Notes: a model not told the origin generated them from the sequence alone. Positions 3,377 through 58,155 are shown, numbered from the whole stretch's first letter. The stretch: 61,424 nucleotides of DNA, filler included, from Coriobacteriales bacterium (GCA_031263105.1; 6 parts of 6 records of this genome joined end to end with filler, not necessarily neighbours in it); one strand, 5' to 3'. Program-made: numbers and translations.

Positions 3377-3464
3377 AGCAGCAGCATACCATATCCGCCC
3401 GCCTCCGCCCGACTAAACCTATTTACTTATGAAAATAGAACTATCCCCCCGCACAGCCTGCACA

Positions 3465-3602
3465 CCCCCACTGTCATTCCGAGCTCCGCCGAGGAATCTT
3501 TGGACACGCAGTGTCCAACCGCAGGCCAGGGGGTCCTTCGACCTGCGGTCGACCGCTGGCGCGGCCGAGGATCCCTCGGCAGGCTCGGGATGGCAGTGGG
3601 GG
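3465..3602. repeat. TGTC-tagged palindromic REP-like repeat
   Basis: CACTGTCATTCCGAGC ... GCTCGGGATGGCAGTG termini; internal TTGGACACGCAGTGTCCAA and GCGGTCGACCGC hairpins. Confidence 0.9.
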
Positions 3603-3808
3603 TCTGTGGAGGGTGTGACCACGTGTGCCTGTAACGCGAAGGCTGCCGCGAAAGCTGCTGGCTCGTGTCGAGCGGCAGCCAGACCCTTGGCGATGCTCAA
3701 AGCCATGTTGTCTGAGGAAGCGCCCGACATCCGAATACGCTTTGCGCCTGCCTTCTTCGCCAAAAAGAGAACGAAAGGGAGACGGGGCGAAGGGCTATAA
3801 TGGTGCCT

Positions 3809-11114: not shown

Positions 11115-11128
11115 GGGGCGTTCCCTTC

Positions 11129-12703: not shown

Positions 12704-12826
12704 GCGACGCCTCCTTCCTTCGCTGACATCAAGACACGGGCACCCTCGAACGGCTGTGCCTGTCGAGACACCACTATACTGCTTGCCGGAAGCGAAAGCC
12801 AGCGACCGTGCGGGCATGACCTCCTC

Positions 12827-12876
12827 TTCCCTTCTCACATCAGTATCCTCTTGGGCTTCAGGCGCAGCACGTAGAG
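12827..12876 (-). pseudogene. Remnant of an FtsX permease 3' end
   Basis: 49/50 nt identical to 11121-11170; encodes LYVLRLKPKRILM-stop. Confidence 0.8.
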
Positions 12877-12890
12877 ATGCTGAGCCTGCC

Positions 12891-13976
12891 TCACCGTATC
12901 TCCTCCCCCGTGACCGCATCGAAGTGGCAGCGGTAGGGCATCCCGTCGGCCTCCACCGGGCCGTCCTGCGCCCCGGTCGCTATCAAATAGCTCCACACGG
13001 GAACCAGTTCGACCGCAGAGCGCGAAGGGTCGGTGTAGCGGACGCAGTACTCCAGGCGGACGTCGGTGACCTCGTAGGGACGCGCCGCGATGAGGGCCGC
13101 CGCGTACCTCTCGTCCAAGAGCCGGTCGGCGGCCTCCTGTGGTAGGATCTCGACCGTCCTTACGTTCGAAGTATCCACCGTGTAGAGCGCCGAGACCGAG
13201 AGCGACACAAGGCCCTCGGCGGTAACGAGGGCCTCGATGGGAGCACCCCCTCTGTACTCTGGGCTTTGGAGGGTGCCGGTGAGGTCGTCGGCGTACAGGG
13301 GGATGCCGCCGACCTCTGGCTCGAGGATCAGGTAATAGCAGTCGTCGGCCTCTGTCCAAGACTCCTTGGGGACGATTTTCCTGTACAGAGACACACCCTC
13401 GTTGTCCGGGTCCCCCAAGATGCCCTCCTCGGCCGCTGCCATCGCCTCGTGGTCGAGGGCATAGGTCGTCACCTTGCCGAACGAGATAAAGCCAAGGCCG
13501 CTCAGGACAGCCTTCACCTTGTCGACGGCCTCCTCGGGGCTGCAGAACCAAAGCCTCCCGCCCGCCGCCGCCCCCTCCGCCCCTAAAAGAGCGTCGCTGG
13601 ATGCGCTCAAATCGAAAACGTCTCTGATGGCCTTGGAGAACGGACCGGAGAAGCTGACGTAACCGGCGTGATCTACGTATACGTCAAAGCCGTCGGTTGT
13701 CGCAATACGGTAATTCGGCCCGCCCTGGCTTTCGTCACGGTAGGTGACGTCGGAGACGGTCTTGCCCTCCAAGAGGCAGGCTTCGGCCTCCTCCGGCGTA
13801 ACGACACGGATGCCAAAGGCCGGGACGTCCAGCGTCGCAGGGGCATCCACCGACTGCCCCAAGGGGTTGCCGAGAGAGCCGCCTGCGCCCTCGCCGGAGG
13901 CACGGCCGACACCCTGGCAGGCGGCGAGCGCAAGCACGAGCAGACACGAGAGGGCACAGAGCACGAACCTTGGCAC
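12891..13976 (-). CDS. Uncharacterised lipoprotein (paralog L3)
   Basis: GTG start, lipobox LAAC; highly similar to 18037-19122; C-terminal L-PVW and FDAVTGEE motifs. Confidence 0.85.
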   Translation of the reverse strand: MPRFVLCALSCLLVLALAACQGVGRASGEGAGGSLGNPLGQSVDAPATLDVPAFGIRVVTPEEAEACLLEGKTVSDVTYRDESQGGPNYRIATTDGFDVYVDHAGYVSFSGPFSKAIRDVFDLSASSDALLGAEGAAAGGRLWFCSPEEAVDKVKAVLSGLGFISFGKVTTYALDHEAMAAAEEGILGDPDNEGVSLYRKIVPKESWTEADDCYYLILEPEVGGIPLYADDLTGTLQSPEYRGGAPIEALVTAEGLVSLSVSALYTVDTSNVRTVEILPQEAADRLLDERYAAALIAARPYEVTDVRLEYCVRYTDPSRSAVELVPVWSYLIATGAQDGPVEADGMPYRCHFDAVTGEEIR

Positions 13977-13991
13977 AACCGATCCTTCTTT

Positions 13992-14102
13992 CTTTGTTCG
14001 AGCAGCGCTTGCCACCAAGGACGTTTCCCGCACACAGGCACCCACCCTTCTGAAGCCTTCACTTAGTAATAGTTGCGAGTTGGGGAACGGTTCACATTTT
14101 TC
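13992..14102 (-). promoter_or_regulatory. Duplicate of the ECF sigma gene promoter and first codons; putative ECF promoter TGAACC at 14094-14089
   Basis: Aligns with 26838-26949; TGAACCG and CTCGCRACTATTACTA are conserved while the spacer differs. Confidence 0.65.
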
Positions 14103-14171
14103 TTGGAATCGGCAGGGTGCCTCAAACCCTCGGGCCTGCCGCCCCTGTCCTCGTCAAGCTGATCCCTCCCC

Positions 14172-15698
14172 TTATAGCAGTATCCTCCGAGGCTTCAGGC
14201 GCAGCACGTAGAGCAGGGGCACGACGCAGGAAAGGGCCACCACGCCTACGCTGACCCCGAAGAACGTGAACACGTAGGGCAGGTCGACACTCACCTGATA
14301 GCTCGCCATGGCGTCCTCTACGGACAATGTGCCCATCAGAAGACCCATGGTGCTCGTCAGTGAGTTGCCCGAGATAGAGTGCATCGAGGAGATGTCCTGT
14401 TGACCCGCCATCTGGCCCTCCACCATGTGCTGAGAGAGCGCCCCAGAAGCAAGGGAGCCCACGAACAGCGCGAGGACGAGGGCGACGAGGGCGACCGCGA
14501 GCACCTCCGCGAGCACCTGGGCCACGACGACAGGACGATGCACGCCGAGCGAAAGATAGATGCCGAACTCGCGGCGGCGGTCGCGCAGGGAGAGCGCGAC
14601 AACGAGCGAGACGACGGTGAGCGCCGCAGCTGCCACTACGACGAGCGCCGTGCCCATGGCCCGCTGGATGCCCTTCATCGGGCCTGCCACTTCCTCGAAC
14701 TGGGTCGTGGCGGAGAGCACCTGGTAGAACTCGGGGAGCGCCGCCTGCGCCGCCTGCTCGAAGCTGTCGAGGTCGTCTGGGGAGTGAAGCAGGTAGAGAA
14801 CGCTGTAGCGCGGCCCCCTGCCTTCCGACTCCTCCCTCGTGAGCTTGCGCTCCGCCTCCAGAGCAAACTCCTGTTCCTCGCGTGCGAGACCGACGGGCAC
14901 GTAGAAGACCTCGTAGTACTCGTTCGCAGCCTCCGTGACGCGCTCTTGAAGCTCCTGTCTGCCTTGGCTGCCTGCAGCCGCCGCGCCCGCGCCGCCGCCG
15001 AGGGAGAACACGCCGATGACCTCGAGCGTGAGGTCGTGCGAGGCGACCACCTCACCGTCCTCCCGACTGGAGAACTTCCCCGCCTGATCCGCTGACGAGT
15101 AGTCCCGCACCTCGTTGAGGAGGGCGACGCGGTCGCCCACGTGAAGGCCGTTCTCCGCAGCCACCATGTCGGGTATGAGGGCGACCGGCCTGCCCTCGGC
15201 GACCTCCTCCTCCGTGAACGTGCGCCCTTCCACGAGGGCAAGTGCACCCTCCTCGATGGGCATGACGGGAGCGTAGCGCGTGCCCCGAAGCGTGAAATGG
15301 GCCATGTCGTCAACCGGGCCGAAATCCAAAGCCCCGGGTACCCGATAGTTCTTCAACTCCGGGGCAATGATTAGCATGGCGTCGATCGAGTAGTCGAAAG
15401 CCCTGACCTCGGGGCGCCGCCCCAGCTCCTCGAAGAGTTCAATGCTGAGGTTCTTGACGACGAAGTCATCGAAGTCCACCCCCCGCTCTTGGGCCTCCGT
15501 CAACGCCTGGGAGTCCCCTCCCAAGGAAACGCTGGCGCCCAGCGCCTGTTTTGCTGCCTCCTCGGAACCGGCCACCGCCTGGCGCACCGCCACCGCGCCC
15601 GCCATCAGGCTGCCGAGTGCGAGCACGACCAAGAACAGGATGAGGCTCTTGCCAGGCCGCCGCACGATGCTCAGAAACGCACGCCTCACGAAGCCCAT
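14172..15698 (-). CDS. FtsX/MacB-type ABC permease (paralog 2)
   Basis: Same architecture as 11129-12703; RDRRREFGIYLSLG motif. Confidence 0.92.
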   Translation of the reverse strand: MGFVRRAFLSIVRRPGKSLILFLVVLALGSLMAGAVAVRQAVAGSEEAAKQALGASVSLGGDSQALTEAQERGVDFDDFVVKNLSIELFEELGRRPEVRAFDYSIDAMLIIAPELKNYRVPGALDFGPVDDMAHFTLRGTRYAPVMPIEEGALALVEGRTFTEEEVAEGRPVALIPDMVAAENGLHVGDRVALLNEVRDYSSADQAGKFSSREDGEVVASHDLTLEVIGVFSLGGGAGAAAAGSQGRQELQERVTEAANEYYEVFYVPVGLAREEQEFALEAERKLTREESEGRGPRYSVLYLLHSPDDLDSFEQAAQAALPEFYQVLSATTQFEEVAGPMKGIQRAMGTALVVVAAAALTVVSLVVALSLRDRRREFGIYLSLGVHRPVVVAQVLAEVLAVALVALVLALFVGSLASGALSQHMVEGQMAGQQDISSMHSISGNSLTSTMGLLMGTLSVEDAMASYQVSVDLPYVFTFFGVSVGVVALSCVVPLLYVLRLKPRRILL

Positions 15699-17222: not shown

Positions 17223-18012
17223 CGCCGAGCCTCTTTCTTACGCTCCGGCAGAAGAGCAGGCCGAACAGGGCCGTCAAAACGATGAAGAGAAAAACGGAGT
17301 AGAGCAGCGAGAGGCCCGCGTCAGGAAAGACCGCAAGGCCCTCCGCGAGCCTGCCTATCCTGAGGAAGGACGGGAGGCCGAGCAAGGAGGAGACGAGGCC
17401 CGTGAACCAATAGGCCACGACGGGTGCCGCATAGACCACGAAGACGTTGGGGACGACCGAGGAGACATAGAGCGCGAACACCGCCCAGAACGAGCAGGCG
17501 ACGCTCATCGCCACCATCTGCAGCAACAGATACGCCAAGGCCGGAAGCTGGACGACCCCGCCGAAGAACAGGAACTCGAAGGAGACCGCCTCATGGGCGG
17601 CGGTCAAGGGCGCCTGGAGCCCAAGGAGCAGCGCGGCGCAGGCATAGCCCAGAAGGACCGCCGCAAAGGTCGAGAGCGCCACGGCGACGACCCGCGAGGA
17701 CGCATAGGCCCCTGCGGAGGAGCGGATCACGCAGAACCTCACGAAACGGCTCCGGTAGTCTGCACAGAACGAGTGGCCGTAGGCAGCAACCCCCAGGCTG
17801 TAGGCGACGATTGCGAGGGTGGTGTTCTGAAAGACGAAAAAATGAAAGAGGTAGGAGACGCTCTGGGTTGCCCCTGCGCCCAGGGCGGCCGAGCGCTCCA
17901 GGGACATCGAGAGAAAGCAGAGCGCCACGATGGCAAGGGCCGCCCCACAGAAGCGCGGCGAGAGGAAGGCCCTCCGCAGATCGGAGCGCAAGGCTGATCT
18001 GCGGCTAGCCAT
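17215..18012 (-). CDS. ABC-2-like membrane permease
   Basis: About 6 TM segments, YGHSFCADY...IRSS...Y motif; overlaps the next gene. Confidence 0.8.
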   Translation of the reverse strand: MASRRSALRSDLRRAFLSPRFCGAALAIVALCFLSMSLERSAALGAGATQSVSYLFHFFVFQNTTLAIVAYSLGVAAYGHSFCADYRSRFVRFCVIRSSAGAYASSRVVAVALSTFAAVLLGYACAALLLGLQAPLTAAHEAVSFEFLFFGGVVQLPALAYLLLQMVAMSVACSFWAVFALYVSSVVPNVFVVYAAPVVAYWFTGLVSSLLGLPSFLRIGRLAEGLAVFPDAGLSLLYSVFLFIVLTALFGLLFCRSVRKRLGDG

Positions 18013-18036
18013 ACAGGCGCCCCCTGGAGGCCTGCC

Positions 18037-19122
18037 TCACAGTATCTCCTCCCCCGTGACCGCATCGAAGTGGCAGCGATAGGGCATCCCGTCGGCCTCC
18101 ACCGGGCCGTCCTGCGCCCCGTCCGCTATCCGGTAGCTCCACACGGGCACCAGCTCGACCGCAGAGCGCGAGGGGTCGGTGTAGCGGACGCAGTACTCCA
18201 GTCGGACGTCGGCGACCTCGTAGGGACGAGCCGCGATGAGGGCACCGTACTTCTCCTCCAAAAGCCTGTCGGCGGCCTCCTGGGACAGGAGTTCGACCGT
18301 CCTTGAGGCAGCGGGATCCACCGTGTAGAGCGCCGAGAACGTGAGCGACACGAGGCCCTCGGCGGTGACGAGGGCCTCGGCGGGGATGCCGGCTCTGTAG
18401 TCTGGGCTCTGGAGGGCACGGGTGGGGTCGTCGGCGTACAGGGGGATGCCGTCGACTTCTGGTTCGAGGATTATGCGGTAGCAGTCATCGGCCTCCGTCC
18501 AGGACTCCTTGGGGACGATCTTCCCATACGCGATCATGTCCTCGTTTGTCGGATCCCCCAAGACGTCCTCCTCGGCCGCAGCCATCGCCTCGTGGCCGAG
18601 GGCATAGACCGTCACCTCGCCGGACGAAGTGAGGCCCAAGGCACCCAGGGCTGCCCTCGCCTCGTCGACGGCCTCCTCGGGGCTGCAGAACCAAAGTGCC
18701 TCGTCTGTCGCCGTCCCCGCCGCTTCTAAAAGAGCGTAGCGGGATGCACCAAGACTGAGAACATCTCCGATGGCTTGAGAGAATGGGCTGGACATGCTGA
18801 GATATCCGACACTGTGATCTATGTATACGGAAAAGCCGTCGGTCGTCGTAATGCTGTAACCTGGCCCGCCCTGGCTTTCGTCGTGGTAGGTGACGTCGGA
18901 GACGGTCTTGCCCTCCAAGAGGCAGGCCTCGGCCTCCTCCGGCGTAAGGAGACGGATGCCAAGGGCTGGGATGTCCAGCGTCGCAGAGGCATCCACCGAC
19001 TGCCCCAAGGGGTTGCTGAGGGAGCTTGCTGCGCCCTCGCCGGAGGCACGGCCGGCGCCCTGGCAGGCGGCGAGCGTAAGCATGAGCAGGCACGAGACGG
19101 CACAGAGCACGAACCTTGGCAT
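18037..19122 (-). CDS. Uncharacterised lipoprotein (paralog L2)
   Basis: MPRFVLCAVSCLLMLTLAAC lipobox; paralog of 12891-13976. Confidence 0.87.
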   Translation of the reverse strand: MPRFVLCAVSCLLMLTLAACQGAGRASGEGAASSLSNPLGQSVDASATLDIPALGIRLLTPEEAEACLLEGKTVSDVTYHDESQGGPGYSITTTDGFSVYIDHSVGYLSMSSPFSQAIGDVLSLGASRYALLEAAGTATDEALWFCSPEEAVDEARAALGALGLTSSGEVTVYALGHEAMAAAEEDVLGDPTNEDMIAYGKIVPKESWTEADDCYRIILEPEVDGIPLYADDPTRALQSPDYRAGIPAEALVTAEGLVSLTFSALYTVDPAASRTVELLSQEAADRLLEEKYGALIAARPYEVADVRLEYCVRYTDPSRSAVELVPVWSYRIADGAQDGPVEADGMPYRCHFDAVTGEEIL

Positions 19123-19229
19123 AGCAAGCCCTTCTTTCCTTGAAGCGGGGCGGGAGGCGGGGAGGCGTGCCTCCATCCTCCGGAGTCGCAGGAGCAGCAC
19201 GTAGAGCAGACTCTTCGCTCTCTCAGCCT

Positions 19230-19679
19230 CTAGGAGCACCACTTGACAGCGAGACGCAGCCAGCCAAACTCATCGTTGGTTGTATGGCCAAGCATTCTAA
19301 TCCATGTGTTTGCACCTACAGTAGTGCTGCTCCAGTACCATTGGTATGACGTTTGGCCGTATGCTCCCGGAAAGCCGTTATACCCATACGAGCCCCTGAT
19401 CAGCTCTATGGTGTCTGAGACTACCGCCCCGCCAGAGAGCTTGGCACGAAAGTACACCTTTTCTCCTACATGCCAGTCGCTGGCAACACCGTCAAAACTG
19501 GTTCGCGGCGTAACAAACCAGCGTCCCTCGTTATCTACCTTTTGATTCGGTGGAGTTTCTTCATTGGTGCCATTTGGATTCATAAGCAGCATAAGATCCA
19601 CGTTGCCTGCGAACGCAGGGGAGATGCCCCCGAACAACAGGACACCGACAATCGCAAAGACCGCTATTTTCTTTTTCAT
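19230..19679 (-). CDS. Secreted 149-aa protein (paralog A2)
   Basis: Sec signal MKKKIAVFAIVGVLLFGGISPAFA, RBS AAGGAGGA, visibly lower GC than flanking genes; mature part about 49% identical to 22819-23268 (manual ungapped count, 61/125). Confidence 0.88.
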   Translation of the reverse strand: MKKKIAVFAIVGVLLFGGISPAFAGNVDLMLLMNPNGTNEETPPNQKVDNEGRWFVTPRTSFDGVASDWHVGEKVYFRAKLSGGAVVSDTIELIRGSYGYNGFPGAYGQTSYQWYWSSTTVGANTWIRMLGHTTNDEFGWLRLAVKWCS

Positions 19680-19849
19680 GAAATCCTCCTTCTTCTTGAA
19701 ACGGGACAGCCCAAATCCTCGATGGTGGTCAGAGCACTAGCGTCCGTACCTATCCGCTCGCATGGCATCCCCTCCTTTCAACCCCTCGAATCCCTCAAAA
19801 ACCGGCGGGAAGCGGCACGTTCCGCCGTTCCCCGCCAAGGTGAAGCCTT

Positions 19850-19963
19850 CTACTTGTCCAGCGTAAGCGGAATTTCCACAGACGTGCTATCGACCGCAAA
19901 GGAGAGCGTGAGCGTCTCGGGGGCGTCGAAGTACATGCTGTCGAGCTCGATACGGCTAGCCAC
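19850..19963 (-). pseudogene. Chimeric deletion scar: first codons of the ABC-2 permease fused in frame to the anti-sigma C-terminus
   Basis: GTG-ASR (compare MASR at 18012) joined to IELDSMYFDAPETLTLSFAVDSTSVEIPLTLDK-stop (compare the end of 25058-26311). Confidence 0.8.
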
Positions 19964-19987
19964 ACAGGCGCCTCCGGGAGACGTGCC

Positions 19988-21081
19988 TCACAGTATCTCC
20001 TCTCCCGTGACCGCGTTGAAATAGCATTGGGAGGGCATCCCATCGGCATCCACCGGGCCGTTCTGTGCCCTATCCGCTATCGAGTAGCTCCATGCAGGCA
20101 CCAACTCGACCGCAGCATGCAAGGAGTCGGTGTATTGGACAAAATACTCCAGCCGAACGTCGGTGACCTCGTAGGGGCGATTCGTGATGAGGAGACCGTA
20201 CTTCTCATCCAAGCACCTGTCCGCAGCCTCTTGGGGCAGGAGCTCAACCGTCCTTACAGTCGAGTGATCCGTCGTGTAGAACGCCTTGACCCAAAGCGAG
20301 ACGATGCCGTCAGCGGTAACGAGGGCCTCGATGGCACCACCCGGACTGGAGTTGTAAGTCTGAACGCTGGTAAAGTCGTCAGAGTGCAGAGGGATGCCGC
20401 CGATTTCCGTCTCAAGGACTATGTAGTAGCAGTCGTCGGCCTCCGTCCAAGAGTCTTTGGAGGCAAGCTTGCCCAAGGCGAGCATGTCATCATTGTTCGG
20501 ATCCCCCAAAATAGCCTCCTCAGCCGCTGCCATCGCCTCGTGGCCGAGGGCATAGATCGCCACCTCGCCGGTCTGGGTGAAGCCCAGACCGGTCAGAGCA
20601 GCCTTCAGCGTGTCGACGGCCCCTCAGGACTACAGAACCAAAGGCTCTCGGCTGTAGACGAGCTCTTCGCCCCTAAAAAAGCATCCCTGTCCACAGCGAG
20701 GCCCAAGATCTGATCGACGGATCTCGCAAGCGGGCCACGGAACACAAGCGAACTGTGGTTCGCAAACGAACTGCTGGTCGCTACGGATGCGACAAAACCC
20801 TCGGTCGTCGTAATGGTACAGACTGAGTCATCCACAACTTCATAGTATTCGGTATCAGAGACAGTCCTGCCTTCGAGGAGGCAGGACATAACCTCTTCCG
20901 GCGTAACCGCGCAAAAGGCAAGCGCCGGGACATCAAGCGTCACAGGAGTATCCACTGATTGCGCAAGGGGGTTGCTGATGGGGTTGCCGGCGTCCTCTCC
21001 AGAGGCACGACCGGCACCCTGACAGGAACTGAGCGCGAGCGCGAGCAGGAACGAAGCAACAAGCAACACGAATCTGGGCAT
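19988..21081 (-). pseudogene. Lipoprotein paralog L1, frameshifted
   Basis: Two ORFs (20605-21081 and 19988-20563) align to consecutive halves of L2/L3. A 1-nt deletion at about 20621 turns CSPEEAVD into CSPEGPSTR-stop. Confidence 0.82.
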
Positions 21082-21123
21082 AGTCGCTCCCTTCCTTGAA
21101 ACGAGGCATGACATGGCATTCCC

Positions 21124-22662
21124 TCACATCAGTATTCGTCTAGGCTTCAAACGCAGCACGTAGAGCAGGGGCACAGCGCACGAGAGGGCCGCCACGCCCA
21201 TGCCAAGGCCAAGGAACGTGAGCACATAGGGCGCGTCGATGCCCACCCGATAGCCCGCCACGGCATCCTCTGCGGAGAGCGTGCCTATCAGGAGGCCCAC
21301 GTCGTCGCCGAGGTGGTTGCCCGAGATTTCCACTCCGTAGCCCGAGTAAGCGATGCCCTGCCGAGCCGCCATCCGGCCCTCCACCACCTGCTGGGAGAGC
21401 GCATCGGAAGCGAGCGAGCCCACGAGCAACGCAAGAGCAAGGGCGACGAGGGCGACCACGAGCACCTCCACGAGCACCTGAGCGACGACAGCAGGGCGGT
21501 GCGCGCCGAGCGAGAGGTAGACGCCGAACTCACGTCGGCGGTCACGCAAGGAGAGCACGACGACGAGCGAGACGACGGCCAACGCCGCCGCCGCCGTGGC
21601 GAGGACGGTCGTGTCCATAGCCCGTTGGATGCTCTTCATCGGGGCGGCCACCTCCTCAAACTGGGTCGTGGCGGAGAGCACCTTATAGAACTCGGGGAGC
21701 GCCGCCTGCGCCGCCTGCTCGAAGCTGTCGAGGTCGTCGGCGGAATGGAGCAGATAGAGGAGAGTATAGGACGGCCCTCTGTCGTCCGGTGCCTGCCCCG
21801 CAAACTTACGCTCCGCCTCCAGAGCGAACTCCTGCTCCTCCCGCGCGAGGCTTACGGGCACATAGAAGGTTCGGTAGTACTCGTTCGCAGCCTGGGCGAC
21901 ACGTTCCTTGAGCGCATCCCTGCCCAGCCCGTCTGCGACGGCAGCGCCCGCGCCACCGTCGAGGGAGAACACACCGATGACCTCGAGCACGACATCGCGC
22001 GAGGCGAGCACCTCACCGTCCTCCCGACCGTAACCTTTCACCGAACTCACTTCCGAGTAGTCCCGCACCTCGTTGAGGAGGGTCACAGCATCCCCTGCGT
22101 GGAGGCCGTTCTCTGCGGCCACCACGTCGGGGATGAGGGCGACCGGCCTGCCCTCGGCGACCTCCTCCTCGGTGAACGTGCGCCCCTCCACGAGAGCGAG
22201 GGCACCCTCCTCGATGGGCATGACAGGGGCATAGCGCGTGCCCCGGAGCACGAAGTAGGCCATATCCGCTACCGGGCCATAACTCAGGGCCTCCGTATCC
22301 CAAGCCGGGTACCAGTTCCTCAGTTCCGGGGCCGCAAGGAATGCATTGGTCGAATAGTCGAAGCTCCTGACCTCGGGGCGCCGCCCCAGCTCCTCAACGA
22401 GCTCCGCGCTGAGGTTCTTGACAATGAACTCGTCGAAGTCAATTCCCCTCTTCCAAGCCCCTGTCAGCGCTTGGGTATCACGCCCCAAGGATACGCTTGC
22501 CCCCAGCGCCTGCTTCGCCGCCTCCTCGGATTCCGCCACCGCCTGGCGTACCGCCACCGCACCCGCCGCCAAGCTTCCGAGGGCGAACACGACGAGGAGC
22601 AGGATGAGGTTCTTGCCGGGCCGCCGCACGATGCTCAGGAACGCGCGTTTCGTGAAATGCAT
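21124..22662 (-). CDS. FtsX/MacB-type ABC permease (paralog 1)
   Basis: Highly similar to 14172-15698; RDRRREFGVYLSLG motif. Confidence 0.92.
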   Translation of the reverse strand: MHFTKRAFLSIVRRPGKNLILLLVVFALGSLAAGAVAVRQAVAESEEAAKQALGASVSLGRDTQALTGAWKRGIDFDEFIVKNLSAELVEELGRRPEVRSFDYSTNAFLAAPELRNWYPAWDTEALSYGPVADMAYFVLRGTRYAPVMPIEEGALALVEGRTFTEEEVAEGRPVALIPDVVAAENGLHAGDAVTLLNEVRDYSEVSSVKGYGREDGEVLASRDVVLEVIGVFSLDGGAGAAVADGLGRDALKERVAQAANEYYRTFYVPVSLAREEQEFALEAERKFAGQAPDDRGPSYTLLYLLHSADDLDSFEQAAQAALPEFYKVLSATTQFEEVAAPMKSIQRAMDTTVLATAAAALAVVSLVVVLSLRDRRREFGVYLSLGAHRPAVVAQVLVEVLVVALVALALALLVGSLASDALSQQVVEGRMAARQGIAYSGYGVEISGNHLGDDVGLLIGTLSAEDAVAGYRVGIDAPYVLTFLGLGMGVAALSCAVPLLYVLRLKPRRILM

Positions 22663-22818
22663 GCGCTGCCCCTTCCCTGCCCGCTGCCGTAAGGTTCCTC
22701 CGACGCAACGATATGAAGACCAAACGCCGGAATATACCTACTCATAGACGCTGCCATTTTGGAAAGAGGGTGCAGGCAAGCGAGAAGCCTACAGCCACCA
22801 GATTCCCACAATCGACCT

Positions 22819-23268
22819 CTAGGGACACCACCTGCCGACCATACGCAAAGCGCCGAAGCTGTCGCTGTTTTTATAGCCAGCCATTTTGACAACATAGTTC
22901 GCACCCACAGAGAGAGAACTCCAATACCACTGGTATGCATGGACGTTATAGGTTCCGAAAAAGCCGTTAGGCCCATTCCCATTCTTGATCAGCCCTACCG
23001 TATCCGAGAGCGCCGCTCCAGCGAAATTCTGTGCACGAAAGTATACCGCTTCACCCGTGTTCCAGTCGCTGGAAGCACTCCCTAGGCTGGACAGCGGCGT
23101 AACGTACCAGCGCCCCTCGCTGTCATCTTTCGCGTTCGTCGCAGTATGTGACTCGATACCGCCTTGCTGGATGAGAAGATTAAAATCCGCGTTGCCAGCA
23201 AATGCAGGAATAGCGCCCCCAAACAACAGGATGCCAACAATCGCAAAAATCGCTATCTTCTTCTTCAT
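22819..23268 (-). CDS. Secreted 149-aa protein (paralog A1)
   Basis: Signal peptide MKKKIAIFAIVGILLFGGAIPAFA, RBS AAGGAGGA; ends in GRWCP. Confidence 0.88.
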   Translation of the reverse strand: MKKKIAIFAIVGILLFGGAIPAFAGNADFNLLIQQGGIESHTATNAKDDSEGRWYVTPLSSLGSASSDWNTGEAVYFRAQNFAGAALSDTVGLIKNGNGPNGFFGTYNVHAYQWYWSSLSVGANYVVKMAGYKNSDSFGALRMVGRWCP

Positions 23269-23380
23269 GAAATCCTCCTTCTTCTTGAAACGGGACAACT
23301 CGAATCCTCGATGGCAGTCAGCGCACTAGCGTCCGTACCGATCCGCTCGCATGGCATCCCCTCCTCGTATCATAATCATC

Positions 23381-23585
23381 GTCTCCTCCCGGAGACTTTC
23401 AGTCCTGTACTTACGTCTTTGTGAATATGGGGCAATCCATGACGGCAGGGGTCGCATTTCATCTCCTGAAGCTCAGTCTTCTTCTGAAAGGCTTGCGCCC
23501 CTGCCTGGCGGAGTAACACCGATCAGCTGGATAGCGCTCAGTCGCTTCATGTCTAACGAGGATGTGTGCCGTCAGGCTCCGGGGA
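23381..23585 (+). ncRNA. Putative IS110 bridge RNA (left-end non-coding RNA)
   Basis: 5' hairpin GTCTCC/GGAGAC. A stem-enclosed loop carries TCATCTCCT and TGAAAGG, matching the target. A second loop carries AGCTGG and ACGAGG, matching the donor junction. Both inner hairpins share GCTCAGTC. Boundaries are approximate. Confidence 0.72.
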
Positions 23586-23629
23586 AGAACCTGCCACCCT
23601 TTATCCGTTTGATTGATTGGAGGTAGAAG

Positions 23630-24814
23630 GTGTACTACGTAGGCATCGATGTCGCCAAGCGAAAGCACAGCATGGCGGTAATCACAGGCGAGGGCGAAAA
23701 AGTCATAGAGGGCTTTGAGCTCGCCAACACGACCGAGGGGTTCAAGGTGATGTTAGAGATGCTTGCTGCGTCAGGCGTCACGCACGAAAACTCAAAGGTC
23801 GCCTTAGAGTCCACCGGCCACTGCAGCAACGCCATATCGGCGCATCTGGTGGTCCACGGCTTTCAGATTGCCCTGGGCAATCCGCTTCAGACCCACAACT
23901 TCGCCAAGGCCCAAAGCATAAGAAAGGTGAAAAACGATGCTGTCGACGCATTGGCGCTGGCGCAGTGGCTGCTGCTTCAACGCCCAGGCTGCTTTAAGAT
24001 GTCATCGTCTGAAGCCGCAGAGCTGAAGTCGATCGCAAGGTTTCGCACCTTTCAAATGCAGATTATAGGCGATTGCAAAAGAAAGGTCATCGCGATTTTA
24101 GACCAGCTCTTCCCGGAGTACGAGCGCTTCTTCTCCGACATCTTCGGCACAGCCTCTACAGCAGCGCTTTTGCGCTACCCGTCGGCCAGAGCGCTGTCCC
24201 GCGCCCATATCGACTCCCTCGCGAACCTGCTGAAAAGCTCCAGCAGGGGCAAGTTGGGTTCCGAGTTGGCGATAAGGCTGCGGGATGCGGCCAAAGACTC
24301 GTTTGCCACCAATGCCGCCGTCGAATCCCAGTCTATGGCGCTGGTGCAACTACTGACCCAAATCGAGTTCAGCAAAAAGCAGCTCAGGGCCATTGACAAG
24401 GAGATGAAGTCGCTGCTGGACGTCGCCGCGACACCCATCGCCACTATCCCTGGGATCGGCATCGTCTGCGCAGCCACCATCCTCGGCGAGATTGGCGACA
24501 TAACGCGGTTCAAGAAGCCATCAAGCCTGGTGGCCTATGCCGGGCTTGACCCGTCGGTCTTTCAGTCCGGTGAGTTCACCGGCACGAAGAACCACCTGTC
24601 CAAGCGCGGCTCGACGTTCCTGCGCTGGGCGCTTTGGATAGCTGCTGACCGGGCTAGGATGTTTGACCCGGCGTTTAAAGCCTACTATGCCAAGAAGCGC
24701 TCGGAGGGCAAGTGCCACAAGGTGGCGATGACCGCCGTGGCTCGAAAGCTCTGCAACACCATCTTTGCCGTTTTGACCAGGAACACCGAATACGTCTGCC
24801 CGGTCGCCGGGTAG
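23630..24814 (+). CDS. IS110 family DEDD transposase/recombinase
   Basis: YVGIDVAK, ALESTGH and KNDAVDA (DEDD), IPGIG, EIGDITRF, AYAGLDP.VFQSG (catalytic Ser region), SKRGS, AVARKL. GTG start after GGAGG. Confidence 0.97.
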   Translation: MYYVGIDVAKRKHSMAVITGEGEKVIEGFELANTTEGFKVMLEMLAASGVTHENSKVALESTGHCSNAISAHLVVHGFQIALGNPLQTHNFAKAQSIRKVKNDAVDALALAQWLLLQRPGCFKMSSSEAAELKSIARFRTFQMQIIGDCKRKVIAILDQLFPEYERFFSDIFGTASTAALLRYPSARALSRAHIDSLANLLKSSSRGKLGSELAIRLRDAAKDSFATNAAVESQSMALVQLLTQIEFSKKQLRAIDKEMKSLLDVAATPIATIPGIGIVCAATILGEIGDITRFKKPSSLVAYAGLDPSVFQSGEFTGTKNHLSKRGSTFLRWALWIAADRARMFDPAFKAYYAKKRSEGKCHKVAMTAVARKLCNTIFAVLTRNTEYVCPVAG

Positions 24815-25004
24815 CCTGAAGACCTCAATCCGCAATCATAGCGAGCGGTTCTGCCGCCCGCCACCTTATGCTGCCCAAAAATGCCTAAAGTCTTCGTATG
24901 CGACCCGGGTTTGTCCCATATTCAACTTTCAAAGATCACTTTCAAAAACTTCTCAAGACTCTATTGACTTTTCATAGCTGGCCTTTCAATCCCTCGAATC
25001 CCTC

Positions 25005-25045
25005 AAAAACCGGCGGGGAGCGGCACGTTCCGGCGTTCCCCGCCA
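25005..25045 (-). terminator. Possible intrinsic terminator after the anti-sigma gene (paralog at about 19797-19836)
   Basis: GGCGGGGA...TCCCCGCC stem followed by GGTTTTT on the minus strand. Confidence 0.45.
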
Positions 25046-25057
25046 GGGTGAAACCTC

Positions 25058-26311
25058 CTACTTGTCCAGCGTAAGCGGAAGCTCTACGACCGTGCGACCA
25101 GATGCAAAAGAGAGCGTAAGGGTCTCGGGGGCATCGAAGTACATGCTGTCGAGCTCGAACCAACACTTCGCGACGCCGTCCGTCACGCCGTTTTGACTCC
25201 AAGACCCGGCATCGTAACGTTTGCCGCCCGCTTCCGCACAGGCGTCTACGTGCATCAGGTCGTACTTGGCCTGCGGGTAGCCCGTCTCAGCCGAGAGCGT
25301 CGCGCTGTCAGGGTGGCCCAAGCCGTTCTTCGAGAAGTCAAGATCAGCCTCGAGCCTGCACACGGAGGGCAGGACCGTCACACTCGTGACCTCGATGCCG
25401 GCAGTTGCGAAACCTGGCGCGACACTGTAGGAGAGGGCTTCGATGCGCAGGAACTTGCTATCGACGTCTATGTCGTATGTCCAGTCGCCCCCAAGGACCA
25501 CGGTCTCCAGCGCACCGTCTGCACCAGCGTAGTAACTGAAGCTCAGGTCACTGATGCTCACACGCACCTTTTTCTCGACAGAAACCACCGGTTCGTCGAA
25601 TTTGACAATAACGGGAACCTGGTACCTGCCATCCTCGGTCTTCGCGACATCGGCCATGGCGATAAAATCTTGGTTGCTCCGCACGCTTTCGTGGGTGTTG
25701 TTTTTCATGTCGAAGAAGTAATGGCCTCCGGGAAACGTCTTGTTCTCGATGCCAGTCTCGAAGTCAAAGCTCTCCTTCCACGCGGCGGTCTTGCCGTTCT
25801 CATCGGTCATCTCCAACGAGAACTCCCGCATGAACACGGAAGTGGGGTCATCCGGGATGTCCACGCCGGACAGGATGAAGTCGAGGCCGATCTCGTTGCT
25901 GTCCGCATAGTAGGCCTGGAGCTCCAGCGTGGCACCGAAGGTGAAGACAGGCGACCCGTCCTGCGCCTCGGCCACGAAGCCGGCATCGACGATGGCGCGG
26001 CGCGAATCGTTGGCGAGCATCCCGTCCCCGGTAATCGTCGCGAACAGGGTGCCGAGCGCCCCCGTTGCCGCAAGCGCGGTCGTGCCCAGCGCCAGCACAA
26101 GGATGGTTGCAACGGCGACCGTGGCAAACACGCGGCGACGCGGAGCCCCCGCATACGCTCTCTCCCAACGCGAATGCCCCTGCGAGCCTTTCTGGGAGGC
26201 ATGGCCCTTCACCCTGTCCACGAGGTCGCGACTCGGCGTCTCCGAGATGGAGAGCGCCCGACGGAGCAGGGCGTCGACATCGACTCCGTCAACTCGATTG
26301 TCAGAAGCCAT
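25058..26311 (-). CDS. Putative anti-sigma factor (DUF4179-like, single TM)
   Basis: Short cytoplasmic N-terminus (DALLRRAL), one TM helix (VAVATILVLALGTTALAA), large beta-rich extracellular domain; overlaps the ECF sigma stop codon. Confidence 0.78.
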   Translation of the reverse strand: MASDNRVDGVDVDALLRRALSISETPSRDLVDRVKGHASQKGSQGHSRWERAYAGAPRRRVFATVAVATILVLALGTTALAATGALGTLFATITGDGMLANDSRRAIVDAGFVAEAQDGSPVFTFGATLELQAYYADSNEIGLDFILSGVDIPDDPTSVFMREFSLEMTDENGKTAAWKESFDFETGIENKTFPGGHYFFDMKNNTHESVRSNQDFIAMADVAKTEDGRYQVPVIVKFDEPVVSVEKKVRVSISDLSFSYYAGADGALETVVLGGDWTYDIDVDSKFLRIEALSYSVAPGFATAGIEVTSVTVLPSVCRLEADLDFSKNGLGHPDSATLSAETGYPQAKYDLMHVDACAEAGGKRYDAGSWSQNGVTDGVAKCWFELDSMYFDAPETLTLSFASGRTVVELPLTLDK

Positions 26312-26879
26312 GGTCTGCCACCAATCCTTTCTCAATAAGCTTCCGAGCCTTGTGCAGGCGGCTCTTCACGGTGCCCTCGGGCAGGCCGAGGACGGACGCG
26401 ATGTCCGCGACGCTCATCTCGTTGGCGTAGTACAGGACGACGGGGGCCTTCAGCTTGTCCGGGAGCGCCTCCACGAGCCGCCGCACGGCTCGCTGCTCCT
26501 CCCGCGCCATGAAGTCGTCTTCCGTGCTCGCCGTGCTCGCCGCAGCGCTGCCGCTGTCTGTGGCCTCGTCGAGTGCGACCTCCGGCGCGAGCCGCCTCCT
26601 GCGGGCGTACTTTCTGCGCCTGCTCTTCCACAGAAAGGCCGCCACAGACAAAAGGAAGCTCTGGGGGTCGTCCGCATCCTCCACGTTCGCCATCTGGGAG
26701 AATGCCTTGAGGAAGGTGTCCTGGAACAGGTCGTCCGCATCCTCCCTCGCATAGGTGATGCTCCGACAGAAGCGGTAGACCGCCCCGCCGTACCCGTCGA
26801 CAAGCCCCGCCGCAGACAGCCTGGAGCCTGCCTTTGCCTTTGTTCGAACAGCGCCTACCACCAAGGACGTTTCCTGCAC
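26301..26879 (-). CDS. ECF RNA polymerase sigma factor
   Basis: Region 2 (DADDLFQDTFLKAF) and region 4 (LPDKLK..VVLYY....SVADIASVLGLPEGTVKSRLHKAR). Start uncertain (GTG 26879 or 26891). Confidence 0.93.
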   Translation of the reverse strand: MQETSLVVGAVRTKAKAGSRLSAAGLVDGYGGAVYRFCRSITYAREDADDLFQDTFLKAFSQMANVEDADDPQSFLLSVAAFLWKSRRRKYARRRRLAPEVALDEATDSGSAAASTASTEDDFMAREEQRAVRRLVEALPDKLKAPVVLYYANEMSVADIASVLGLPEGTVKSRLHKARKLIEKGLVADHGF

Positions 26880-26909
26880 ACGCGCACTCACCCTTCTGAA
26901 GCCTTCACC

Positions 26910-26940
26910 TAGTAATAGTCGCGAGATCGAAAGCGGTTCA
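26910..26940 (-). promoter_or_regulatory. Putative autoregulatory ECF promoter (TGAACC -35-like element)
   Basis: TGAACCG...CTCGCGACTATTACTA lies upstream of the sigma gene and is conserved in the copy near 14070-14094. Confidence 0.55.
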
Positions 26941-27060
26941 TTGTTTTTTCGGAATTCCGTGCGCAATGCAAAGGATGCCCTGAGCCAAATTGCCTTGGCG
27001 GGCGTAGCGGGAGCCTCAGTACGTCTTGCCGTCAGATGTAGGCTGTCGTTACTATTCACA

Positions 27061-27255
27061 CCACTGTCATTCCGAGCCTGTCGAGGAATCTTCGACCGCG
27101 CCAGCGGTCGACCGCAGGTCGAAGAGGGCCTCGACCTGCCGTTGGCCGCTTCGCTCTCCATGGGCCTGTCGGCCCGTCCTCGCTGAAAACGCGGTGCGTT
27201 TTCCGGGCGCTCGGACCCAAAGATCCTTCGGCAGGCTCAGGATGACAGTGGGGGT
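27061..27255. repeat. TGTC-tagged palindromic repeat, long composite form
   Basis: CACTGTCATTCCGAGCCTG ... CAGGCTCAGGATGACAGTGGGG; contains the CCTCGCTGAAAACGCGGTGCGTTTTCCGGGCGCTCGGACCC module. Confidence 0.9.
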
Positions 27256-31890: not shown

Positions 31891-32067
31891 CCCCCACTGT
31901 CATTCCGAGCCCCACTGTCATTCCGAGCCCCCACTGTCATTCCGAGCCCCGCCGAGGAATCTTTGGACACGCAGTGTCCAACGGCAGGTCGCAGGGCCCT
32001 TCGGCCTGCGGTCGACCGCTTGCGCGGTCGAGGATTCCTCGACAGGCTCGGAATGACAGTGGGGGTG
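31891..32067. repeat. TGTC-tagged repeat with triplicated left terminus
   Basis: CCCACTGTCATTCCGAGC x3, then the full palindromic body and GCTCGGAATGACAGTGGGG. Confidence 0.9.
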
Positions 32068-32151
32068 TGACGTGTAACTGCCAAACTGTGACAGAGGGGA
32101 GATGCCGATTGACGGCTTGCAAGTTGATAGCGTATCGGGTATCATGTCGGC

Positions 32152-34357: not shown

Positions 34358-34473
34358 NNNNNNNNNNNNNNNNNNNNNNNNNNNNNNNNNNNNNNNNNNN
34401 NTTAATTAATTAANNNNNNNNNNNNNNNNNNNNNNNNNNNNNNNNNNNNNNNNNNNNGTTGTTACACGTCACA

Positions 34474-34650
34474 CCCCCACTGTCATTCCGAGCTCCGTCG
34501 AGGAATCTTTGGACACGCAGTGTCCAACGGCAGGTCAGGGGGCCCTTCGACCTGCGGTCGACCGCTAGCGCGGTCGAGGATTCCTCGGCAGGCTCGGAAT
34601 GACAGTGGGGCTCGGGGTGGCAGTGGGGCTCGGGGTGGCAGTGGGGGTGT
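34474..34650. repeat. TGTC-tagged repeat with tandem right terminus
   Basis: Full body followed by GGGGCTCGGGGTGGCAGT repeats. Confidence 0.88.
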
Positions 34651-47214: not shown

Positions 47215-47394
47215 NNNNNNNNNNNNNNNNNNNNNNNNNNNNNNNNNNNNNNNNNNNNTTAATTAATTAANNNNNNNNNNNNNNNNNNNNNNNNNNNNNN
47301 NNNNNNNNNNNNNNCCCCCCCGCGCCCCCCGCCCGCCCGCCGCGCCGGCGCCCCCCCCCCCCCCCAAACCGACTGGCACGTTACTGAGGTCACA

Positions 47395-58010: not shown

Positions 58011-58155
58011 CCCCGCGCGCCCCGCCCCCCCCGCCCGCGCCCGCCCGAGGGCGGCNNNNNNNNNNNNNNNNNNNNNNNNNNNNNNNNNNNNNNNNNNNNT
58101 TAATTAATTAANNNNNNNNNNNNNNNNNNNNNNNNNNNNNNNNNNNNNNNNNNNN

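What the first reader, a model, noticed from the sequence alone, without database searches (positions are those of the whole stretch)
23381..23585. Readable IS110 bridge RNA: target-binding and donor-binding loops whose guides match the actual flanks
Seen: stem GGCAGGGG(23444)/CCCCTGCC(23498) plus CGCA/TGCG encloses an internal loop. Its left strand TCATCTCCT (23459-23467) matches the left target TCCCCTCCT at 7/9, ending on the core. Its right strand TGAAAGG (23485-23491) is the exact reverse complement of core plus right target, CCTTTCA. A second loop carries AGCTGG (23525-23530), identical to the right-end bases next to the core (24976-24981), and ACGAGG (23556-23561), the reverse complement of core plus left-end start, CCTCGT. 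The inner hairpins of both loops share the octamer GCTCAGTC (23471-23478 and 23536-23543). Established: IS110 recombinases such as IS621 use a left-end bridge RNA with this four-guide layout. Inference: this is a distinct, probably uncharacterised bridge recombinase with a CCT core. Caveat: the left donor guide does not continue through the core (ATA instead of CCT).
Basis: partly seen in the sequence, partly recalled or inferred. Interest (0 to 1): 0.85.

Follow-up and report, generated by a model that had tools for sequence, protein, structure and literature searches.

The report
Bridge RNA of an IS110 element
This is the guide ("bridge") RNA gene of a small jumping-gene element from a termite-gut bacterium, an ordinary new member of the recently discovered RNA-guided IS110 recombinase family rather than a new kind of system.

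Summary

The element is a 1619-bp IS110-family insertion sequence, 23366-24984. Metagenome contigs of related strains carry the empty site as a precise 1619-bp skip with 3 shared bases. Its 394-aa recombinase has both IS110 Pfam domains and the IS621 catalytic residues.

The left end folds into a target-binding loop followed by a donor-binding loop. A covariance model built from 8 relatives finds this structure upstream of the recombinase gene in 148 loci, the window included. Cells are 93.9% paired against 63.5% when shuffled, and 28 of 29 pairs show compensatory change.

Across about 108 unique junctions, the target guides match each element's own flanks far better than other elements' flanks (0 of 1000 permutations reach the observed value). 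Handshake-guide rules and a split promoter across the circle junction also hold.

Corrections:
- The family core is CT. In this clade position 7 is C in both donor and target, so CCT behaves as a 3-nt shared stretch.

Verdict: new member of a known kind. No expression data.

The parts
23357..23365 (+). Left target (TCCCCTC, positions 1-7) plus the left copy of the CT core (23364-23365)
   Evidence: Junction called from the donor guides. Empty-site joint 23362->24982.
23366..24984 (+). IS110-family insertion sequence, 1619 bp counted with one core copy
   Evidence: Ends are conserved in L001, L002, L081, L082 and L086 while the flanks differ. Precise 1619-bp skip in contigs of runs X1 and X2.
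23368..23373 (+). -10 box TATCAT of the split promoter, complete only in the circular form. The predicted transcript start is near 23380.
   Evidence: TTGACT, 17 nt, TATCAT across the RE-core-LE junction. The same layout appears in 81 of 81 unique elements. The start site is inferred, not measured.
23381..23396 (+). 5' stem-loop: GTCTCC, TCCC, GGAGAC
   Evidence: RNAalifold columns 16-31, with compensatory changes in 3 of its 6 pairs.
23402..23433 (+). Second 5' hairpin (GTCCTGTA...TATGGGGC). Its 3' arm overlaps the subterminal inverted repeat TGAATATGGG 23422-23431.
   Evidence: RNAalifold columns 39-81. Inverted repeat with the right end found.
23447..23502 (+). Target-binding loop. Outer stem 23447-23451/23498-23502 and 23453-23456/23494-23497; inner hairpin 23468-23481.
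   Evidence: Helices 1-3 are 89-99% paired, and 12 of 13 pairs have changes on both sides.
23457..23467 (+). Left target guide strand TTTCATCTCCT. It has the same sense as the left flank and ends on core CT 23466-67. It matches 5/7 target positions plus the core.
23482..23493 (+). Right target guide strand TTCTGAAAGGCT. TGAAAG pairs with CT+TTCA. GC 23491-92 is the handshake guide, complementary to donor positions 6-7 (GC).
23504..23576 (+). Donor-binding loop. Outer stem 23504-11/23569-76, second stem 23516-19/23564-67, inner hairpin 23534-23545.
   Evidence: In helices 4-6, all 16 pairs have changes on both sides.
23520..23533 (+). Left donor guide strand CGATCAGCTGGATA. AGCTGG 23525-30 equals the right-end bases 24976-81. 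The 3' AUA is conserved and does not match the core.
23546..23563 (+). Right donor guide strand. ACGAG 23556-60 pairs with CT+CGT of the left end. GA 23561-62 is the handshake guide, complementary to target positions 6-7 (TC).
23630..24814 (+). Recombinase gene, 394 aa, GTG start, with GGAGG at 23619-23623
   Evidence: Pfam DEDD_Tnp_IS110 1.2e-30 and Transposase_20 4.3e-26. Matches IS621 transposase 8wt6 at E 3.5e-22, with D7, E60, D103, D106 and S313 aligned to the catalytic residues.
24915..24924 (+). Right-end copy (CCCATATTCA) of the subterminal inverted repeat
   Evidence: Function unknown.
24964..24969 (+). -35 box TTGACT of the split promoter
24976..24991 (+). Left donor AGCTGG, position-7 C (24982), right core copy CT (24983-84) and right target TTCAATC

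Best explanation
The region 23381 to about 23590 encodes the bridge RNA of an intact IS110-family insertion sequence (23366-24984).

Inferred from the IS621 model (no experiment was done on this element):
- When the element is a circle, the right end supplies a -35 box and the left end a -10 box. The RNA and the recombinase are then transcribed from the junction.
- The RNA folds into two tandem internal loops.
[quoted passage not shown] - In the second loop, the 5' strand (AGCUGG) reads the right end and the 3' strand (ACGAG) reads the core plus the left end.
- A DEDD/Ser recombinase tetramer then exchanges strands at the CT core.
- The two bases 3' of each core complement act as handshake guides for the incoming strand.

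Shown here: the anatomy, helix covariation, guide-flank covariation, the boundaries, an empty site, and conserved catalytic residues.
For: - **Recombinase.** Both IS110 Pfam domains are present. It is related to IS621 and ISCro4 transposases of solved bridge complexes (E 3.5e-22 and 1.5e-21). D7, E60, D103, D106 and S313 align to IS621 D11, E60, D102, D105 and S241, and are invariant in 19 homologues.
- **Boundaries.** Conserved ends sit next to unrelated flanks in 5 close relatives. There is a precise 1619-bp skip with 3 shared bases in one contig each of X1 and X2. Loose ends at 23363 and 24987 point to further copies at other sites.
- **Structure.** RNAalifold on an independent MAFFT alignment of 8 left ends gives the two-loop fold. 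Model R1 hits 90 of 100 sources and 58 of 61 sources on the + strand upstream of the gene. On A4, cells are 93.9% paired against 63.5% shuffled and 33-45% slid, and 28/29 pairs show compensatory change.
- **Guides.** Junctions were called from the donor guides only. The left guide matches the left target at 0.96, 0.89, 0.82, 0.74, 0.59, 0.51 and 0.44 for positions 1-7 from the core. Permuted values are 0.83, 0.45, 0.54, 0.30, 0.30, 0.28 and 0.29. The right guide matches at 0.99, 0.91, 0.85, 0.50 and 0.42, against about 0.3-0.4 permuted. This covers 109 left and 107 right unique pairs, and 0/1000 permutations reach the observed totals.
- **Close relatives.** The right guide follows different right flanks: TTCA, TTCTT, TCGCC, TTCGTG, TTCAT, CCTT.
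- **Handshake guides.** The first base of the donor-loop handshake guide pairs with target position 7 in 75/84 elements and with donor position 7 in 5/84. The second base of the target-loop handshake guide pairs with donor position 6 in 57/84 and with target position 6 in 6/84. This is as described for IS621 (PMC11208158 passages).
- **Split promoter.** It scores >=9/12 in 81/81 unique elements, and 78 have a 17-nt spacer.
- **Conservation pattern.** Target guides are the variable columns and donor guides are invariant in an alignment that is 84% identical overall. Durrant et al. report the same pattern.
Against: - There is no transcript evidence. No RNA run holds the stretch, so the start, the 3' end and the expression level are inferred.
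- A single-sequence MFE fold of the left end does not return the two-loop structure and is not unusually stable (z -1.4).
- Rfam 15 has no match even at E<=10.
- In the window the left guide matches only 5 of 7 target positions. In L001 and L082 it matches 3 of 7.
- The left donor guide does not pair with the core. Durrant et al. state that in IS621 every guide includes it.
- In this clade both handshake guides also pair with their cognate position 7 (C in both donor and target). In IS621, cognate-only pairing blocks strand exchange.
- The permutation test does not correct for relatedness of the elements. The A4 alignment used for pair counts was fitted to the model's structure.
Confidence: 0.9

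Rival explanations
1. The left end is an ordinary structured 5' leader that controls translation or stability of the recombinase mRNA. On this view its short matches to the flanks are chance or a by-product of end repeats.
For: The MFE fold pairs the region differently. RNAalifold also pairs the two donor-guide strands with each other, columns 177-187 with 208-217. The 7/9 left-guide match in the window is not significant on its own.
Against: A leader would not track the flanking host DNA, yet the guides match their own flanks and not others' (0/1000 permutations). Right guides change together with different right flanks in close relatives. The handshake pattern is specific.
Confidence: 0.03
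2. The repeats of end sequence inside the left end (AGCTGG, CTCGT) are DNA-level recombinase binding sites, that is subterminal repeats, rather than RNA guides. Only the target loop would act as RNA, as a seekRNA-like short form.
For: Donor-guide sequences are invariant within clades, so they offer no covariation inside the close family. The clade also carries other end repeats: an inverted repeat about 55 nt from each end, and a copy of CT+CGTAT about 90 nt before the right end in relatives. Target-loop-only RNAs are reported to be active in part (bioRxiv 10.1101/2025.10.25.684509 passages).
Against: Across clades the left donor guide changes with the right end. AGCTGG, AGTTAG and AGTTGG each match their own end, which is how 102 to 107 right junctions could be called from the guide. 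The donor-loop helices covary as RNA, with 16/16 pairs changed on both sides.
Confidence: 0.04
3. The element is a dead relic: the RNA gene and ORF look intact, but the copy no longer moves.
For: There is only one copy in the 61-kb window and no genome is held. Two guide-target mismatches lie at the left target. The empty-site contigs are about 90% alike, so they come from other strains rather than from fresh excision.
Against: The ORF is open with all catalytic residues, and the promoter halves and all helices are intact. Other junction contexts for both ends are present in the same metagenomes (loose ends).
Confidence: 0.15

Closest known systems
IS621 bridge RNA and recombinase (E. coli; Durrant et al. 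2024, PMC11208160; Hiraizumi et al. 2024, PMC11208158)
   Same: - The RNA lies in the left end, upstream of a DEDD+Tnp recombinase.
- The layout is a 5' stem-loop, then the target loop, then the donor loop.
- The 5' loop strands read the bottom strand and the 3' strands read the top strand.
- It has a CT core, handshake dinucleotides, a split sigma-70 promoter across the RE-LE junction, and ATA...TAT flanking the donor.
- The catalytic residues are shared.
   Different: - The protein is only distantly related: two aligned stretches, E 3.5e-22.
- There is an extra 5' hairpin.
- The left donor guide is 6 nt and stops before position 7 and the core. It ends in a conserved AUA.
- Position 7 is C in both donor and target, which gives a 3-nt shared stretch.
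- The host is a termite-gut member of the Coriobacteriales group, by homologue names and run label.
ISCro4 transposase (PDB 9t56) and the IS622 bridge systems used for genome engineering
   Same: Same family, and a solved recombinase with similar similarity to the window protein (E 1.5e-21).
   Different: I made no comparison of the RNAs. For the 2025 preprint I saw only the search listing and abstract start.
CazIS110-1 of Caloranaerobacter azorensis (bioRxiv 10.1101/2025.10.25.684509)
   Same: An IS110 element of a Gram-positive anaerobe with a left-end bridge RNA. It is experimentally active (passages).
   Different: That work argues for copy-out and top-strand transfer rather than cut-out, so the excision mechanism inferred here is unsettled.
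IS1111-type seekRNA elements (Siddiquee et al. 2024, PMC11187229)
   Same: An RNA-guided DEDD transposase that selects its target through short matches to both strands (abstract and passages).
   Different: There the non-coding region is downstream of the gene and the order of the guide segments is reversed. Here the RNA is upstream.
IS900 group of IS110 elements (mycobacteria)
   Same: Insertion next to translation-initiation signals, in a fixed orientation. This is recalled from Doran et al. 1997, which I did not see. I saw only indirect passages in PMC8141618.
   Different: By recall, IS900 sits between the ribosome-binding site and the start codon. In the present family the core lies at the 5' edge of the Shine-Dalgarno sequence, so SD and ATG stay together.

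Membership tests
IS110-type bridge RNA system (IS621-like) | RNA encoded in the non-coding left end, upstream of a recombinase with DEDD_Tnp_IS110 and Transposase_20 domains | tested here: met
   The model hits lie upstream of the gene on the + strand in 148 loci, the window included.
IS110-type bridge RNA system (IS621-like) | Catalytic DEDD residues and the Tnp-domain serine | tested here: met
   D7, E60, D103, D106 and S313 align to IS621 D11, E60, D102, D105 and S241. They are invariant in 19 sequences.
IS110-type bridge RNA system (IS621-like) | Two tandem internal loops, each closed by a stem and holding an inner hairpin, supported by covariation | tested here: met
   (independent alignment); 93.9% paired, 28/29 pairs compensatory, slide controls 33-45%.
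IS110-type bridge RNA system (IS621-like) | First-loop strands match the left target (sense) and right target (antisense), and covary with insertion sites across orthologues | tested here: met
   109 and 107 unique pairs, 0/1000 permutations. The window has 5/7 plus core on the left and CT+TTCA on the right.
IS110-type bridge RNA system (IS621-like) | Second-loop strands match the right end (sense) and left end (antisense) of the element | tested here: met
   AGCTGG and ACGAG in the window. Right junctions were found from the left donor guide with a full score in 107 unique cases.
IS110-type bridge RNA system (IS621-like) | CT core present at both junctions and once in the empty site | tested here: met
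   Empty-site joint with 3 shared bases.
IS110-type bridge RNA system (IS621-like) | Every guide, including the left donor guide, pairs through the core (Durrant et al.) | tested here: not met
   The left donor guide ends in AUA/AUG opposite (C/T/G)CT in all rows. The other three guides include the core.
IS110-type bridge RNA system (IS621-like) | Handshake guides pair with positions 6-7 of the non-cognate DNA | tested here: met
   75/84 and 57/84 for non-cognate pairing, against 5/84 and 6/84 for cognate. In the window both handshake guides fit (GC with GC, GA with TC), but position 7 is also cognate-paired.
IS110-type bridge RNA system (IS621-like) | Sigma-70 promoter rebuilt across the RE-LE junction | tested here: met
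   By sequence only: TTGACT, 17 nt, TATCAT, with the same layout in 81/81 elements. Promoter activity was not tested.
IS110-type bridge RNA system (IS621-like) | The RNA is expressed, binds the recombinase and is required for recombination | not testable with these tools
   No RNA run holds the stretch.
Rfam RNA families | Match to a curated covariance model | tested here: not met
   No match at E<=10 in 22800-25400. I do not know whether Rfam 15 holds a bridge RNA family.
IS1111-type seekRNA | Guide RNA encoded downstream of the transposase gene, with long subterminal inverted repeats | tested here: not met
   The RNA is upstream. The right non-coding end is only 170 nt.

The most novel reading that the evidence does not exclude
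The wider family to which this element belongs is naturally programmed to land on translation-initiation regions. The 3' end of the left target guide (…CCUCCU or …CACCU) looks like the anti-Shine-Dalgarno end of 16S rRNA, a resemblance I recall rather than tested. The element inserts antisense at the 5' edge of a gene's Shine-Dalgarno sequence, and the variable guide bases read the spacer up to the start codon. The family also reads its donor with a left donor guide that never touches the core. Together these would make it a distinct working variant of the bridge scheme. Its target class would be every gene start, and its donor core would be checked by one strand only.
Probability: 0.35. Interest if true: 0.5.

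Novelty: new member of a known kind. Interest (0 to 1): 0.3.

Why it matters
Bridge recombinases are being developed as programmable tools for DNA insertion, inversion and excision. Each natural orthologue with a readable guide layout adds to the rules for guide length, core and handshake design.

This element adds three things:
- A well-bounded example from an under-sampled host group, with its empty site on record.
- A clade in which position 7 is shared by donor and target.
- A family-wide case of a donor guide that skips the core.

It does not change the known picture. Thousands of such RNAs have already been predicted by covariance models.

Tried and rejected
- **Single-sequence folding.** The MFE structure pairs the loops differently, with z -1.4. 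I set it aside in favour of comparative structure.
- **Rfam.** No match.
- **Whole-genome copy search.** No genome is held. The window holds a single copy.
- **Earlier findings.** Nothing to show.
- **Expression.** No RNA holder is listed.
- **Contigs.** They cannot show a circle junction, and none was seen.
- **First junction calls.** I called left junctions from the right donor guide over a 170-nt window. Many were wrong, including the window's own. I replaced this with a narrower window (45-105 nt before the model hit) plus the TAT of the -10 box.
- **First right-junction rule.** It required one spacer base and missed the roughly 50%-identity clade, where AGCTGG abuts CT. It was redone allowing 0 or 1 spacer base.
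- **Idea that the target lies in REP-like repeats.** This was suggested by the right flanks of L002 and L084. It is not general and I dropped it.
- **L084.** Its right junction (AGCTGG-CT) looked aberrant until the 50% clade showed the same spacing.
- **Literature on Shine-Dalgarno targeting.** Two searches found no relevant paper: IS110 + bridge RNA + Shine-Dalgarno, and IS110 + ribosome binding site + target site + bridge RNA. The single hit mentions it in another context. Three searches for the IS900 statement gave only indirect passages. PMC335114 is not held.
- **Supplements.** I did not open the supplementary data of Durrant et al., which list predicted bridge RNAs and targets. They may already contain this family.

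Full report
**What is there.** The window holds one ORF of 394 aa at 23630-24814 (+). It carries the two Pfam domains of IS110 transposases: DEDD_Tnp_IS110 at 1.2e-30 and Transposase_20 at 4.3e-26. Against solved structures it matches only the IS621 transposase (8wt6, E 3.5e-22) and the ISCro4 transposase (9t56, E 1.5e-21). In the printed alignment the window's D7, E60, D103, D106 and S313 stand opposite the residues that Hiraizumi et al. name as catalytic: D11, E60, D102, D105 and S241, with chain numbering offset by 2. The same five residues are invariant in an alignment of 19 homologues of 49-86% identity. There are 2666 homologues at E<=1e-20. The few that carry names come from Coriobacteriales, Atopobiaceae and Slackia. 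The only DNA run holding the stretch is labelled termite gut metagenome.

**Checking the observation.** I read 23100-25200 base by base. Every coordinate and every match in the finding is correct; the list is in the observation check. The single-sequence MFE fold does not give the proposed structure and is not unusually stable (z -1.4). Rfam 15 has no match even at E<=10. The case therefore rests on comparison with relatives.

**Boundaries.** I fetched 80 loci from genome contigs and 80 from metagenome contigs using a 19-protein alignment.
- In the five closest loci that have both flanks (L001, L002, L081, L082, L086; 63-75% protein identity), the sequence starts being alike exactly at CGTATC. 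It stops exactly after CATAGCTGG(C/T), with CT on both sides and unrelated DNA outside.
- Independently, one contig in run X1 (depth 20.8, 95 nt on the shorter side) and one in X2 (depth 4.7, 61 nt) join 23362 to 24982. This skips 1619 bases with 3 bases that fit either side.
- Those contigs differ from the window at roughly one base in ten. They are related strains with an empty site, not fresh excision products.
- X1 contigs with no differences span both junctions. X1 may be the sample the window was assembled from, so that is not independent.
- Loose ends at 23363 (X1, X2) and 24987 (X1) show the same or a near-identical element next to other DNA.
- The element is therefore 23366-24984.

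**Structure.** A MAFFT alignment of eight left ends, folded by RNAalifold, gives seven helices:
- a 5' hairpin (23381-23396);
- a second hairpin (23402-23433);
- a long-range helix;
- a first internal loop closed by 23447-56/23494-502, with inner hairpin 23468-81;
- a second internal loop closed by 23504-11/23569-76 and 23516-19/23564-67, with inner hairpin 23534-45.

I built a covariance model of the two loops (140 positions, 29 pairs).
- It finds one hit on the + strand upstream of the recombinase gene in 90 of 100 sources, the window included.
- It does the same in 58 of 61 further sources. One extra weak minus-strand hit (E 0.91) I disregard.
- Two of the hits (L010, L091) cover the first loop only.
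- On the 72 distinct rows of the first set, 93.9% of cells are paired against 63.5% after shuffling (0/500 shuffles as high).
- Sliding the partners by 1-3 columns gives 33-45% paired.
- 28 of 29 pairs show changes on both sides.
- That alignment was fitted to the model, which favours the structure. The independent eight-sequence fold agrees with it.
The CC at 23504-05 belongs to the donor-loop stem.

**Guides against flanks.** To avoid circularity I located junctions from the donor-loop strands only.
- The right junction is the 6 nt before the conserved AUA of the left donor guide, followed by 0-1 base and CT.
- The left junction is the reverse complement of the right donor guide plus the TAT of the -10 box, 45-105 nt before the model hit.
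- Of 148 hits, 2 were skipped (no donor loop). Rows without a confident junction, mostly at contig ends, were dropped, and identical guide-flank pairs were collapsed. That left 109 left and 107 right pairs.
- The left target guide equals the left flank at 0.96, 0.89, 0.82, 0.74, 0.59, 0.51 and 0.44 of elements for positions 1-7 from the core. Position 8 is at background. Guides dealt to other elements give 0.83, 0.45, 0.54, 0.30, 0.30, 0.28 and 0.29.
- The reverse complement of the right target guide equals the right flank at 0.99, 0.91, 0.85, 0.50 and 0.42, against 0.42-0.29 when permuted.
- No permutation of 1000 reaches the observed totals: 540 against 327±11, and 434 against 241±13.
- The test does not correct for shared descent. 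However, the guide sequences are very diverse.
- Among close relatives the right guide follows right flanks that differ: TTCA, TTCTT, TCGCC, TTCGTG, TTCAT, CCTT.
- Left-guide matches in that clade are uneven: 6/7 in L002, L086 and L084; 5/7 in the window; 4/7 in L081; 3/7 in L001 and L082.
- In the 84%-identical alignment the target-guide columns are the variable ones and the donor-guide columns are invariant. Durrant et al. describe this same pattern.

**Core and handshake.** All junctions carry CT, the IS621 core. In the window's clade the base before the core is C in both the right end and the target (T in both in L086). Hiraizumi et al. describe two bases 3' of each core complement that pair with positions 6-7 of the other DNA after strand exchange. 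In 84 unique elements with both junctions:
- the first such base of the donor loop is complementary to target position 7 in 75, and to donor position 7 in 5;
- the second base of the target loop is complementary to donor position 6 in 57, and to target position 6 in 6.

In the window, GC (23491-92) fits donor GC and GA (23561-62) fits target TC. Because position 7 is the same in both DNAs here, the first handshake base pairs before and after exchange. In IS621, cognate-only pairing is inhibitory. Whether equal pairing is neutral is inference.

**Left donor guide.** In every row, the left donor guide strand ends in AUA or AUG where the core would be read. Durrant et al. state that the core is included in all four pairings. 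So this family departs from the IS621 scheme on that one point. In the window the donor is read over 6 nt on the left, and over CT+CGT on the right. I have no tested explanation for the conserved AUA. RNAalifold pairs it with the 5' part of the opposite strand, but those columns never vary.

**Promoter.** TTGACT (24964-69) lies 15 nt before the end of the core, and TATCAT (23368-73) lies 2 nt into the left end. In a circle they would be 17 nt apart. With the -35 box required in the right end and the -10 box in the left end, all 81 unique elements with both junctions score at least 9 of 12 against TTGACA/TATAAT, and 78 have a 17-nt spacer. This is the arrangement described for IS621. Activity and the start near 23380 are inferred.

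**How it most likely works.** See Best explanation. The steps after the anatomy are taken from the IS621 literature (passages of PMC11208160 and PMC11208158; abstract of PMC13626964). Whether excision is cut-out or copy-out is disputed (passages of bioRxiv 10.1101/2025.10.25.684509). Nothing here bears on that question.

**Context and side observations.**
- The element lies antisense between minus-strand genes. An ECF-type sigma factor gene (26304-27161) and an unassigned 425-aa ORF lie on the right. A small unassigned ORF and an FtsX-type permease lie on the left.
- Read on the minus strand, the left junction is AG|GAGGGGATG…, and a 30-codon ORF starts there and ends in an ATGA overlap with the next gene.
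- Across the family, 74 of 97 unique left flanks of at least 200 nt have an ORF of at least 50 codons on the opposite strand, starting 6-19 nt from the core. Random positions give 404/1900 (21%) and all CT sites give 1651/7440 (22%).
- In the window's own clade this holds for only 1 of 4 flanks.
- Targeting of translation-initiation signals is something I recall for IS900. I could not see that paper. My two searches that combined IS110, bridge RNA and Shine-Dalgarno or ribosome binding site found nothing relevant.

**Novelty.** Bridge RNAs of IS110 elements are established. Thousands have been predicted by covariance models: 5,511 target pairs in Durrant et al. and 181,180 IS110-adjacent sequences clustered in a 2026 preprint. 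This is a correct by-eye reading of one more, with modest clade-specific twists. I rate it a new member of a known kind, interest 0.3.

Noticed in passing
Left junctions of L003-L160; in the window 23262-23365 (minus strand): Elements of this family sit antisense at the 5' edge of a Shine-Dalgarno-like sequence followed by a start codon. 74 of 97 unique left flanks have an ORF of at least 50 codons starting 6-19 nt from the core, against 21-22% at control positions. In the window only a 30-codon ORF starts there. It overlaps the next gene's start (ATGA).
   Followed up: partly
window 23531-23533, and the same position in all model hits: The left donor guide strand always ends in AUA or AUG, next to the inner hairpin. 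It never matches position 7 or the CT core. Its role is unexplained.
   Followed up: partly
window 23422-23431 and 24915-24924: A 10-nt inverted repeat (TGAATATGGG / CCCATATTCA) lies about 57-59 nt from each end of the element. Repeats of 10-14 nt occur at the same distance in L001, L002, L086 and L009, and only 8 nt in L081. It is seen only in this clade, and the left copy is also the 3' arm of the second RNA hairpin.
   Followed up: partly
window 24893-24905; right ends of L001, L002, L081, L082, L086: Relatives carry a copy of core plus left-end start (CTCGTAT) about 90 nt before the right end. By exact match, 7 of 83 unique elements carry one (1 in shuffled controls), five of them 80-99 nt from the right end. 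The window's copy is altered (CTTCGTAT). Function unknown.
   Followed up: partly
L010 1606-1674 and L091 1106-1174: In these two loci (44% protein identity) the model matches the target-binding loop only, about 330 nt upstream of the gene. No donor loop was aligned.
   Followed up: no
window 3459-3618, 31922-32081, 34468-34627, 47389-47548, 58139-58298 and others: A family of dispersed repeats of about 160 nt, in both orientations, with runs of an 18-19-nt unit (CCCCACTGTCATTCCGAGC-like). They resemble REP/MITE-type intergenic repeats. Similar motifs lie in the flanks of L002 and L084.
   Followed up: no
window 11128-15678 and 18002-22642: Three paralogous gene modules at 60-90% DNA identity (repeat families D2-D6, D8, D9). 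One member (21127-22662, minus strand) is an FtsX/MacB-type permease.
   Followed up: no
window 23299-23312 and 24991-25004: CTCGAATCC(C)TC occurs about 65 nt left of the insertion point and 8 nt right of it. This may be chance.
   Followed up: no
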